Below, piece after piece: positions 2,916 through 4,083 of a stretch of 64,000 bases of DNA. The stretch lies in NCBI RefSeq assembly GCF_003334385.1, contig NZ_QOWN01000003.1. The stretch is one strand, 5' to 3'. The stretch is from Escherichia coli (GTDB lineage: Bacteria > Pseudomonadota > Gammaproteobacteria > Enterobacterales > Enterobacteriaceae). Under the pieces are notes generated by a model. The model ran no database searches, had not been told where the DNA came from, and saw nothing but the letters and a program-made list of their open reading frames with translations. Numbering within the stretch: position 1 is the first letter of the stretch; every line of letters begins with the position of its first letter. The position numbers and the translations under genes were made by a program.

Positions 2916-3042
2916 GCGAGTGAATCTTTCGTGCTATTCGAGTCATATTCTGAAATATCCAGCGGATCAAGAAAATTCGTTGGATATTTTTTTTGCATGG
3001 ATAAAATTATCGCCTCTAAAGTATGTAATAACAGGGAATGTG

Positions 3043-4083
3043 ATGAAAAAAGTTTTATTACAAAACCATCCTGGGAGCGAGAAGTATTCTTTTAATGGCT
3101 GGGAAATATTTAATAGTAATTTTGAACGGATGATTAAAGAAAATAAGGCCATGCTGCTTTGTAAGTGGGGGTTTTATTTAACATGTGTTGTCGCTGTAAT
3201 GTTTGTGTTCGCAGCGATAACATCCAACGGTTTGAATGAAAGAGGCCTGATTACCGCGGGATGCTCTTTTCTTTATCTATTAATTATGATGGGGCTTATT
3301 GTTCGGGCCGGTTTTAAAGCAAAAAAAGAACAACTGCATTATTATCAGGCTAAAGGTATTGAGCCGCTCAGTATCGAGAAGTTACAGGCGCTACAATTGA
3401 TCGCACCTTATCGATTCTATCATAAGCAATGGTCTGAAACGCTGGAGTTCTGGCCGCGAAAGCCTGAACCTGGCAAAGATACCTTCCAATATCATGTGCT
3501 TCCTTTTGACTCGATCGATATCATAAGTAAAAGACGCGAGTCTTTAGAGGATCAATGGGGTATCGAAGATAGCGAAAGTTATTGTGCCTTAATGGAGCAT
3601 TTTCTTTCTGGCGACCATGGAGCCAATACCTTTAAAGCAAACATGGAGGAAGCCCCAGAGCAGGTTATCGCCTTGTTGAATAAATTTGCTGTTTTTCCCT
3701 CAGACTATATCTCTGATTGCGCTAATCATAGCTCCGGTAAATCCTCGGCGAAGCTAATATGGGCGGCGGAATTATCATGGATGATCTCGATATCAAGCAC
3801 AGCTTTTCAAAACGGGACAATTGAAGAAGAACTGGCCTGGCATTATATAATGCTTGCTTCTCGAAAGGCGCACGAGTTGTTCGAAAGCGAAGAAGATTAT
3901 CAAAAAAATAGTCAAATGGGATTTCTTTACTGGCATATCTGCTGCTATCGCAGAAAGTTAACGGATGCTGAACTTGAAGCGTGTTATCGTTACGACAAGC
4001 AGTTTTGGGAGCACTACAGTAAGAAATGCCGTTGGCCCATAAGAAATGTTCCGTGGGGAGCATCATCCGTTAAATACTCATAA
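3043..4083 (+). CDS. ynjI: Uncharacterised inner-membrane protein (DUF1266-like), AT-rich
   Basis: ORF 2920..4083; likely start at MKKVLLQNHP… (3043). Hydrophobic segments near the N-terminus; markedly AT-rich versus its neighbours; no recognisable catalytic motif. Confidence 0.8.
   Translation: MKKVLLQNHPGSEKYSFNGWEIFNSNFERMIKENKAMLLCKWGFYLTCVVAVMFVFAAITSNGLNERGLITAGCSFLYLLIMMGLIVRAGFKAKKEQLHYYQAKGIEPLSIEKLQALQLIAPYRFYHKQWSETLEFWPRKPEPGKDTFQYHVLPFDSIDIISKRRESLEDQWGIEDSESYCALMEHFLSGDHGANTFKANMEEAPEQVIALLNKFAVFPSDYISDCANHSSGKSSAKLIWAAELSWMISISSTAFQNGTIEEELAWHYIMLASRKAHELFESEEDYQKNSQMGFLYWHICCYRRKLTDAELEACYRYDKQFWEHYSKKCRWPIRNVPWGASSVKYS

What the first reader, a model, noticed from the sequence alone, without database searches (positions are those of the whole stretch)
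2920..4083. ynjI: AT-rich membrane protein gene of unknown function next to topB
Like ydjO, this ORF is conspicuously AT-rich compared with flanking selD/topB and gdhA, and encodes a protein with N-terminal TM segments and no catalytic motif I can identify. It is followed by a REP pair. Probably acquired and weakly expressed.
Basis: seen in the sequence. Interest (0 to 1): 0.3.

Follow-up and report, generated by a model that had tools for sequence, protein, structure and literature searches.

The report
ynjI: silenced DUF1266 inner-membrane protein gene
This is the already annotated E. coli gene ynjI, an AT-rich, normally silent accessory gene for a membrane-anchored protein of unknown function; it turns out to be an old resident of a three-state variable slot between topB and gdhA, not a recent import.

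Summary
The gene is ynjI (b1762). Its CDS is 3043-4083 (346 aa), not 2920-4083; the extra 123 nt are promoter and 5' UTR. GC is 41.3% (GC3 41.8%) against 53-56% in topB and gdhA. The protein has a two-helix membrane hairpin and a C-terminal Pfam DUF1266 domain, and a REP inverted pair follows the gene.

"Recently acquired" is not supported. Orthologues sit in the same selD-topB-[ynjI]-gdhA slot in Pseudocitrobacter, Escherichia sp. and unnamed gut enterobacteria. Their dS equals that of the flanks (1.18 vs 1.22/1.33) and dN/dS is 0.07-0.14, so this is an old, selected gene that has stayed AT-rich.

Among 5426 complete E. coli genomes the slot has three states: ynjI (~64%), an HscC-like Hsp70 plus J-domain/Sel1 pair (~7%), or essentially empty (~29%). 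Thirteen genomes carry a second ynjI allele that is 68% identical, inside near-identical flanks.

Function remains unknown. The AlphaFold model is confident (pLDDT 93) but has no solved structural relative, and the gene has no conserved neighbours. The best lead is that the paralogues YbeR and YbeU are translationally coupled to the J-proteins DjlB and DjlC, next to HscC. Published work shows ynjI is activated by BglJ-RcsB and moderately repressed by H-NS/StpA.

Verdict: a known gene with modest new context.

The parts
2750..2915 (+). 3' tail of topB (last ~55 codons). It forms the left part of the polymorphic segment: each state of the slot has its own tail sequence.
   Evidence: Identity between the K-12, Hsp70-state and empty-state alleles is 0.93-1.00 up to ~2749. 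It falls to 0.23-0.77 from ~2750 to the stop codon (alignment).
2916..3042 (+). topB-ynjI intergenic region, i.e. the ynjI promoter and 5' UTR (GC 35%). Features: hairpin plus T-run at 2952-2990 (terminator-like, after topB); BglJ-RcsB core motif wwTTCykA at 2946-2953; -35-like TTGGAT at 2980-2985; -10-like TAAAAT at 3002-3007; SD-like AGGGA at 3033-3037.
   Evidence: PMC3950696 shows that BglJ-RcsB activates the promoter in this intergenic fragment and that the site centre lies 65-68 nt upstream of the TSS. The exact hexamers and the TSS (~3015) are my inference from the sequence; they were not read from the paper's figures.
3043..4083 (+). ynjI CDS (b1762), 346 aa, DUF1266 domain-containing inner-membrane protein.
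   Evidence: RefSeq annotation. NCBIfam PRK11380, 671 bits. dN/dS 0.07-0.14 against orthologues.
3055..3075 (+). Codons 5-11, the conserved N-terminal cytoplasmic motif L-Q-N-H-P-G.
   Evidence: Q7 and N8 are conserved in 95% of 67 family members and P10 in 79%. AF2 pLDDT is 87-89 although the segment is coil.
3154..3312 (+). Transmembrane helical hairpin: TM1 about aa 38-60, a turn of ~5 residues, TM2 about aa 66-90. It is the least conserved region and probably only an anchor.
   Evidence: Hydropathy >1.6. AF2 helices 36-60 and 66-104. Positive charges lie on the N side (6 K/R) and the C side (RAGFKAKK), with one in the turn, which gives an N-in/C-in topology (inference). Mean top-residue frequency is 0.21, against 0.40-0.43 elsewhere.
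3313..3522 (+). Conserved juxtamembrane linker (aa 91-160), with the motifs EQxxYY and W-S-E-T-L-E-x-W-P.
   Evidence: Q97 98%, Y100 98%, W130 100%, L134 95%, P138 97% across 67 sequences.
3541..4056 (+). DUF1266 domain (aa 167-338), an all-alpha bundle.
   Evidence: Pfam PF06889, E 2.9e-25. AF2 helices 158-335 with pLDDT >90. hhalign against YbeU gives 94.4% probability, E 9e-8.
3200..4090 (+). Segment replaced in the rare second E. coli allele (P0005 type, 13 of 5426 genomes).
   Evidence: Nucleotide identity is 55-75% here and 92-100% on both sides. pS is 0.75 (saturated) and dN is 0.20.
4084..4199 (.). Spacer between the convergent 3' ends of ynjI and gdhA. It holds a REP inverted pair, with arms at 4104-4127 and 4160-4183.
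   Evidence: The right edge of the polymorphic segment is the gdhA stop codon.

Best explanation
What it is (shown; about 0.95 confidence). ynjI is a real accessory gene kept by purifying selection. It encodes a 346-aa inner-membrane protein made of four parts:
- a short conserved N-terminal peptide (LQNHPG);
- a poorly conserved two-helix membrane hairpin with a turn of ~5 residues;
- a highly conserved juxtamembrane linker (EQxxYY ... WSETLExWP);
- an all-alpha DUF1266 domain.

The positive-inside rule places everything except the turn in the cytoplasm (inferred).

The gene is AT-rich. According to published work it is kept low by H-NS/StpA and switched on by the BglJ-RcsB activator, which binds in the 127-nt region upstream.

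It is one of three alternative occupants of an old variable slot between topB and gdhA.

How it most likely works (inferred; about 0.25-0.3 confidence). The hairpin is only a tether. The cytoplasmic linker and DUF1266 module would be a non-catalytic protein-binding or adaptor unit working at the inner face of the membrane. Its most plausible partner is the specialised HscC-type Hsp70 / DjlB-DjlC J-protein machinery.

The reasoning is by analogy. The soluble paralogues YbeR and YbeU are made in a fixed ratio with, and presumably bind, the membrane-anchored J-proteins. YnjI would be a self-anchored version of the same module.
For: Real, selected gene:
- dN/dS is 0.14, 0.08 and 0.07 between orthologues.
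- dS equals that of the flanks.
- Synteny is kept in four other enterobacterial sources.

Architecture:
- establish the domains and motifs.
- The AF2 model has pLDDT 92.9 and pTM 0.89.
- About 60 full-length relatives turned up in the 1.84-billion-protein HMM search. Of 64 such hits of at least 200 aa, 52 have exactly two TM segments.

Regulation: PMC3950696.

Link to Hsp70 and J-proteins:
- The DUF1266 domain of the YnjI family aligns to YbeU over the whole domain (hhalign 94.4%, E 9e-8).
- In K-12, ybeR/djlB and ybeU/djlC overlap by 4 nt and lie next to hscC.
- The same DUF1266 / Djl-type J-protein / HSP70 trio occurs at a different locus in Pectobacterium.
- DjlC is described as a protein inserted into the plasma membrane (PMC8215388). 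A 2019 mBio paper on tail-anchored membrane proteins (PMC6794478) mentions djlC 10 times. The specific description of DjlC as tail-anchored is my own knowledge.
- In ~7% of E. coli genomes the very slot that holds ynjI instead holds an Hsp70 43% identical to HscC plus a J-domain/Sel1 protein.

Non-catalytic reading:
- There is no enzyme-family or solved-structure match.
- The E. coli clade has replaced family-conserved D243 with E, R246 with W and R252 with S while staying under purifying selection.
Against: - No YnjI-type gene examined has a J-protein or Hsp70 neighbour. All are singletons between unrelated genes.
- YnjI and YbeR/YbeU are not significantly similar by BLASTP.
- 33 of 58 more distant DUF1266 hits carry a single N-terminal, signal-peptide-like hydrophobic segment. 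The domain is therefore also used outside the cytoplasm, where no Hsp70 exists.
- None of the 23 multi-domain DUF1266 proteins scanned is fused to a J domain.
- Sharing a slot with an Hsp70/J pair may only mean that the slot is a general hotspot.
- No interaction data were found.
- The cytoplasmic topology is inferred, not measured here.
Confidence: 0.3

Rival explanations
1. Conflict-type (immunity- or defence-like) binding protein. YnjI would neutralise or sense an incoming toxin or phage product at the inner face of the membrane. The topB-gdhA slot would be a hotspot where alternative protective cargos are exchanged.
For: - The slot shows a presence/absence/replacement polymorphism with three states.
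- A second allele 68% identical, with saturated synonymous sites, sits inside 92-100% identical flanks.
- The gene evolves faster than its neighbours: 60-82% aa identity where the flanks are 91-95%.
- The family is patchy across Proteobacteria, Bacteroidota, Myxococcota and Actinomycetota.
- The domain occurs in cytosolic, membrane-tethered and signal-peptide forms.
- It also occurs in tandem triplicate and fused to Ank or TPR repeats.
- One homologue is followed by an SMI1_KNR4 (SUKH) gene. Others lie 8-47 nt downstream of an amidase, an Exo_endo_phos protein or an S26-peptidase protein.
- The gene is H-NS-silenced.
Against: - There is no significant PADLOC or PHROG match for YnjI.
- No copies were found on plasmids or phages.
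- No toxin, secretion-system or defence gene lies at the E. coli locus.
- The upstream hydrolases in other taxa belong to unrelated families, unlike a cognate toxin-immunity pairing.
- The gene has been syntenic and under purifying selection since before the Escherichia/Pseudocitrobacter split, which is unusual for arms-race cargo.
Confidence: 0.2
2. Membrane-associated enzyme. The conserved polar and aromatic residues of DUF1266 (WG, GH, WD..R, E..AW, F.SWE, NY..GR.FW) would form an active site acting on a lipid or envelope precursor at the membrane surface.
For: - Sharply conserved W, D, R, E, H, N and Y positions run across very distant members.
- The domain is held at the membrane.
- RcsB is an envelope-stress regulator.
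- Some relatives are fused to, or adjacent to, cell-wall-related domains such as Amidase_3, Cu_amine_oxidN1 and beta-helix.
Against: - The E. coli/enterobacterial YnjI clade has lost three of the most conserved charged residues (D243E, R246W, R252S) and the 'GR' arginine.
- Small all-alpha bundles with Trp-rich cores are more often binding modules.
Confidence: 0.12
3. One reading: a recently acquired foreign gene, weakly expressed and of little consequence, possibly decaying.
For: - Low GC.
- H-NS/StpA effect.
- Absence from ~36% of E. coli genomes.
- IS1 insertions in some strains.
- Truncated forms in Shigella.
Against: - dS to the Pseudocitrobacter and Escherichia sp. orthologues matches the flanking core genes.
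- dN/dS is 0.07-0.14.
- The reading frame is intact in ~3,470-3,490 complete genomes with >=80% coverage of the query.
- A dedicated activator site has been mapped experimentally.
Confidence: 0.07

Closest known systems
YbeR and YbeU (E. coli K-12 DUF1266 proteins in the ybeQ-ybeR-djlB-ybeT-ybeU-djlC-hscC cluster)
   Same: They share the same Pfam domain (PF06889). The profile alignment covers the whole domain (94.4% probability). They are also uncharacterised, and their locus also varies among E. coli.
   Different: - YbeR and YbeU are 235-aa proteins without TM segments.
- They are translationally coupled to a J-protein gene next to hscC.
- YnjI has an N-terminal motif, a TM hairpin and a conserved linker, and it is a singleton with no chaperone neighbour.
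- Pairwise BLASTP between them is not significant.
HscC / DjlB / DjlC specialised Hsp70 system
   Same: It acts at the cytoplasmic face of the inner membrane. It is low-abundance and accessory, with an unresolved function (PMC8215388). A paralogous Hsp70 + J/Sel1 pair is the alternative cargo of the ynjI slot.
   Different: YnjI has no ATPase, J or Sel1 domain. Any functional link is inferred from its paralogues and from sharing the slot, not shown.
Other BglJ-RcsB-activated, H-NS-affected y-genes (ynbA, ygiZ, yecT, yqhG, ykiA, sfsB, molR, chiA, yidL)
   Same: [quoted passage not shown] They are cryptic in laboratory conditions, and several are inner-membrane proteins (PMC3950696).
   Different: They are unrelated in sequence. 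The shared regulation says when ynjI is made, not what the protein does.
Immunity proteins of polymorphic toxin systems (e.g. the SUKH / SMI1_KNR4 families)
   Same: They are small binding domains found with or without export signals, in tandem copies and repeat-domain fusions, with patchy and fast-evolving distributions. One YnjI homologue is adjacent to an SMI1_KNR4 gene.
   Different: No cognate toxin was found next to ynjI or consistently next to its homologues. DUF1266 was not recovered in any defence or immunity library searched here.

Membership tests
Pfam DUF1266 (PF06889) / NCBIfam PRK11380 (YnjI equivalog) | Significant match to the family HMM over the full model. | tested here: met
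   PF06889: E 2.9e-25, model positions 1-175 of 175, aa 167-338. NF008480: 671 bits against a cutoff of 386, positions 1-350 of 353.
YnjI-type membrane-anchored DUF1266 subfamily (defined here) | N-terminal LQNHPG motif, two TM helices, an EQxxYY / WSETLExWP linker and a C-terminal DUF1266 domain, in a protein of ~340-400 aa. | tested here: met
   Full-length HMM matches (positions 1-342) in about 60 cluster representatives. Motif conservation. Two TM segments in 52 of 64 hits. Similar predicted folds in Xenorhabdus, Hafnia, Acinetobacter, Chitinophaga, Haliangium, Microbacterium and others.
YbeR/YbeU-type HscC-Djl module | The DUF1266 gene overlaps, or is translationally coupled to, a Djl-type J-protein gene. 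| tested here: not met
   ynjI is flanked by topB and a convergent gdhA. By contrast ybeR/djlB and ybeU/djlC overlap by 4 nt, and the Pectobacterium pair abuts.
YbeR/YbeU-type HscC-Djl module | An HscC-type Hsp70 gene in the same cluster. | tested here: not met
   None lies near ynjI. An HscC-like Hsp70 occupies the same slot only in strains that lack ynjI.
YbeR/YbeU-type HscC-Djl module | Physical interaction of the DUF1266 protein with the J-protein or Hsp70. | not testable with these tools
   No interaction data or multimer prediction was available.
Xenogeneically silenced, horizontally acquired genes | AT-rich relative to the host genome and flanks. | tested here: met
   GC 0.413 against 0.53-0.56 in the flanks, in the 5th percentile of the window.
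Xenogeneically silenced, horizontally acquired genes | Repression by H-NS. | tested here: inconclusive
   Literature only: expression is 'moderately increased' in an hns stpA bglJ mutant, and the effect may be direct or indirect (PMC3950696). No ChIP data were consulted.
Xenogeneically silenced, horizontally acquired genes | Recent acquisition: divergence or phylogeny out of step with the flanking core genes. | tested here: not met
   ynjI dS is 1.18 against topB 1.22 and gdhA 1.33 (Pseudocitrobacter), and 0.29 against 0.39 and 0.74 (Escherichia sp.). The rare second allele does look imported.
Known anti-phage defence systems (PADLOC-DB 2.0) | Match to a defence-protein HMM. | tested here: not met
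   The only hit is a chance-level match on the TM region (E 0.017, RTasSLATT).
Toxin-immunity pairs | A cognate toxin gene immediately adjacent. | tested here: not met
   None at the E. coli locus. Neighbours in other taxa are heterogeneous.
REP / BIME elements | Imperfect ~35-nt palindromic units with a GGCCTAC-type end, in inverted pairs, repeated elsewhere in the genome and lying between genes. | tested here: met
   Inverted arms at 4104-4127 and 4160-4183. Related copies at 31644-31712. Strong fold with z -4.3. The comparison with the REP consensus is from my own knowledge.

The most novel reading that the evidence does not exclude
DUF1266 would be the missing client, adaptor or regulator module of the enigmatic HscC-type Hsp70/Djl systems. 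YnjI would be its self-anchored membrane form. The topB-gdhA slot, like the equally variable ybe cluster, would shuffle components of one accessory membrane-surveillance system, possibly a conflict or stress system, among E. coli lineages.
Probability: 0.15. Interest if true: 0.55.

Novelty: already known. Interest (0 to 1): 0.28.

Why it matters
ynjI is one of the remaining uncharacterised y-genes of E. coli K-12, and the DUF1266 family has no known function or solved structure.

This analysis moves the gene from 'recent foreign DNA' to 'old, selected, conditionally silenced accessory gene', and gives it a defined architecture.

It also yields a concrete hypothesis that can be tested cheaply: partnership with the HscC/Djl chaperone branch, whose cellular role has itself been unclear since 2002.

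The three-state topB-gdhA slot and the deep allelic dimorphism are useful markers for E. coli population genomics. None of this overturns current understanding.

Tried and rejected
- **GTG start at 2920.** Rejected. Homologues align from the ATG at 3043, and the extension contains the mapped promoter region.
- **Defence and phage libraries.** Nothing for YnjI in PADLOC or PHROGs.
- **Plasmids and phages (tblastn).** Only a mis-filed chromosome and a 240-nt fragment.
- **Rfam on 2600-4400.** No RNA family.
- **Conserved operon partners.** Contexts of eight distant homologues share no neighbour. NCBIfam on ten of those neighbours was uninformative.
- **DUF1266 inside the J/Sel1 protein of the alternative cargo.** None.
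- **J-domain fusions among multi-domain DUF1266 proteins.** None.
- **Literature.** 'DUF1266' appears in one paper, as a table entry for a DUF1266 gene of strain 042 whose locus tag (EC042_RS03510) suggests the ybe region rather than ynjI; I did not check this. 'PF06889' appears in none. 'ynjI' appears in seven papers, and only the BglJ-RcsB study is informative.
- **The search for related loci.** The broad alignment A4 failed because it has no conserved 7-mer. A1 found only close orthologues.
- **Not possible with these tools.** A genome-by-genome cross-tabulation of ynjI against the ybe cluster.
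Full report
**Identity and coordinates.**
The window is the E. 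coli K-12 selD-topB-ynjI-gdhA-ynjH-nudG-ynjF-ynjE region. It is 100% identical to K-12 strains over 2300-4800 and reads in the reverse of the MG1655 orientation.

RefSeq annotates ynjI (b1762) at window 3043-4083, 346 aa. I accept the shorter start for three reasons:
- Every relative, down to 25% identity, starts with M-K-x-x-L-Q-N-H-P-G at residues 1-11.
- An AGGGA motif sits 5 nt before the ATG.
- The 127-nt topB-ynjI spacer is the fragment in which a BglJ-RcsB-dependent promoter and binding site were mapped experimentally (PMC3950696).

Within that spacer the published core motif wwTTCykA occurs once, at 2946-2953. That is about 66 nt upstream of where a TAAAAT -10-like hexamer (3002-3007) would place a start site, and the paper reports 65-68 nt. 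The hexamers and the start site are my inference.

**Composition.**
ynjI has GC 0.413 and GC3 0.418. topB has 0.551/0.589 and gdhA 0.532/0.542. Only 5% of 1041-nt windows in the 64 kb are as AT-rich (z -1.9).

**Protein.**
- Two hydrophobic helices lie at about 38-60 and 66-90, separated by a ~5-residue turn.
- Positive charges cluster before TM1 (six K/R) and after TM2 (RAGFKAKK), which implies N-in/C-in. I did not verify this against published topology data.
- Pfam finds only DUF1266 (aa 167-338, E 2.9e-25).
- NCBIfam finds only the 'hypothetical protein' equivalog PRK11380.

An HMM search of 1.84 billion cluster representatives found 499 relatives. About 60 of them share the whole architecture. 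Of 64 such hits, 52 have exactly two TM segments.

In a 67-sequence alignment (A4) the hairpin is the least conserved part. The most conserved positions are Q7, N8, Q97, Y100, W130, L134, P138, W240, A265, W266 and F280. These define an N-terminal motif, a juxtamembrane linker (EQxxYY ... WSETLExWP) and the domain core.

AlphaFold2 run on this alignment gives a confident all-alpha model (pLDDT 92.9, pTM 0.89). No solved structure resembles it:
- Foldseek's best E-value against the PDB is 2.
- Profile searches of PDB sequences are empty.

AFDB50 returns only DUF1266/YnjI-labelled proteins. They come from Xenorhabdus, Hafnia, Pragia, Acinetobacter, Arenicella, Leeia, Chitinophaga, Sinomicrobium, Pedobacter, Haliangium, Cellulomonas, Microbacterium and Clavibacter. 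The distribution is broad but sparse.

**Is it 'acquired'?**
Close orthologues (58-91% aa identity) are rare. Among 100,044 species representatives, only Escherichia sp. MOD1-EC7003 and Pseudocitrobacter vendiensis were found, plus one E. coli contaminant contig. A few more came from gut metagenomes.

All of them lie between topB and gdhA. All keep 42-44% GC beside 54-58% GC flanks.

| Comparison | ynjI dS | topB dS | gdhA dS |
|---|---|---|---|
| K-12 vs Pseudocitrobacter vendiensis | 1.18 | 1.22 | 1.33 |
| K-12 vs Escherichia sp. MOD1-EC7003 | 0.29 | 0.39 | 0.74 |

dN/dS for ynjI is 0.07-0.14. The gene has therefore co-diverged with its neighbours and is under purifying selection. It evolves roughly three times faster at non-synonymous sites than its flanks. 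A recent import is not supported. An ancient acquisition with persistent low GC, followed by repeated loss, fits best.

**The slot is polymorphic.**
State of the topB-gdhA slot in 5426 complete E. coli genomes:

| State | Genomes | Share |
|---|---|---|
| ynjI present (>=80% of the 2.5-kb query) | 3486 | ~64% |
| HscC-like Hsp70 + J-domain/Sel1 pair | ~355-369 | ~7% |
| Short spacer with a single REP ('empty') | remainder | ~29% |

- In the second state the Hsp70 is 566 aa and 43% identical to HscC. It comes with one or two 647-aa proteins that have a J domain and eight Sel1 repeats. Strains 536, ATCC 25922 and clone D i14 carry it.
- The right edge of the variable segment is the gdhA stop codon.
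- The left edge is about 165 nt inside topB, so each state has its own TopB C-terminal tail.
- Thirteen genomes carry a second ynjI allele. Identity to K-12 is 92-100% up to ~3200 and again from ~4100, but only 55-75% in between. Synonymous sites there are saturated (pS 0.75) and dN is 0.20. This looks like an imported cassette from a more distant relative that recombined within the gene.
- IS1 insertions and truncated Shigella forms also occur.

**Clues to function.**
YnjI-type genes in other taxa are singletons with no shared neighbour. They are absent from plasmid and phage collections and from defence and phage HMM libraries.

The one robust association concerns the soluble paralogues:
- In K-12, ybeR/djlB and ybeU/djlC overlap by 4 nt and lie beside hscC and two Sel1 genes.
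- In Pectobacterium a DUF1266 gene abuts a 907-aa Djl-type J-protein gene, with a convergent HSP70 gene next to it, at an unrelated locus.
- The YnjI-family profile aligns to YbeU across the whole domain (94.4% probability), although BLASTP is insignificant.
- HscC cooperates with DjlB/DjlC at the membrane, and its role is unresolved (PMC8215388).

Taken with the fact that the alternative cargo of the ynjI slot is an HscC-like/J-Sel1 pair, this gives my preferred but weakly supported model. YnjI would be a self-anchored DUF1266 adaptor or partner acting at the cytoplasmic membrane face with that chaperone branch.

Counter-evidence weakens any universal Hsp70 link and leaves an immunity-like binding role open:
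- More distant DUF1266 proteins mostly carry a signal-peptide-like N-terminus (33 of 58).
- The domain occurs in tandem triplicate or fused to Ank, TPR or beta-helix domains, but never to a J domain.
- One homologue is followed by an SMI1_KNR4 gene.

An enzymatic role is less likely. The enterobacterial clade has replaced three family-conserved charged residues (D243E, R246W, R252S) while remaining under purifying selection.

**3' end.**
The 116-nt spacer shared with the convergent gdhA holds two REP units in inverted orientation, at 4104-4127 and 4160-4183. Related copies lie elsewhere in the window, and the predicted structure is very stable (-49.5 kcal/mol, z -4.3). No Rfam family matches. 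A genomic SELEX study lists an RpoS-holoenzyme binding peak in this gdhA/ynjI spacer (PMC5493296). I did not follow this up.

**Verdict.**
The feature is an already annotated gene. The new context is the three-state slot, the deep allelic dimorphism, the family architecture and the link to the HscC/Djl module through paralogues. This is of moderate interest and gives testable leads, not a discovery.

Noticed in passing
window 2750-4199; loci L004, L028, L029 (Hsp70 state), L002 (empty state): The topB-gdhA slot has three states in E. coli: ynjI, an HscC-like Hsp70 with one or two J-domain/Sel1 genes, or a single REP. The last ~55 codons of topB differ with each state, so TopB's basic C-terminal tail co-varies with the cargo.
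   Followed up: partly
L005 (K-12 672000-688000): The ybeR-djlB-ybeT-ybeU-djlC-hscC cluster is itself variable. The full two-module form is in 3664 of 5426 genomes, a one-module form (72% of the query) in roughly 760, and there is no match in ~1000. Whether this correlates with the state of the ynjI slot could not be tabulated.
   Followed up: no
L003, L009 vs window 3200-4090: A rare second ynjI allele (13 of 5426 genomes, from pigeon, poultry, frog, bear, pig, cattle and human isolates) has recombination breakpoints inside the gene at about codon 53 and at the stop/REP. It is 99-100% identical among its carriers. The donor is unknown.
   Followed up: partly
L017 (NZ_ABFU01000109.1, 926 nt): A contig filed under Bacillus coahuilensis m4-4 is 100% identical to E. 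coli ynjI residues 68-346. This is almost certainly E. coli contamination of that assembly.
   Followed up: no
L018-L020 vs window ~38.6-41.5 kb: In another enterobacterium a YnjI-type gene (25% identical) sits between a Fructosamin_kin (yniA-like) gene and yniB. From my knowledge of the K-12 map (not checked in the window), the same neighbourhood lies at ~38.6-41.5 kb here without such a gene. This suggests that different intergenic slots hold family members in different lineages.
   Followed up: no
window ~34000-34500 and ~42500-44500: These are the most AT-rich 1-kb stretches of the window, more extreme than ynjI. The first lies just downstream of the 753-aa ORF at 31786-34047. The second overlaps ORFs at 42921-44820 on the minus strand.
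   Followed up: no
window 4084-4199: A genomic SELEX study lists a strong RpoS-holoenzyme binding peak (value 79.5) in the spacer between the convergent gdhA and ynjI genes, which is the REP pair region (PMC5493296). No promoter is expected there.
   Followed up: no
window 5544-5778: The gdhA-ynjH divergent intergenic region is also AT-rich (GC 0.37), as is usual for a promoter region.
   Followed up: no
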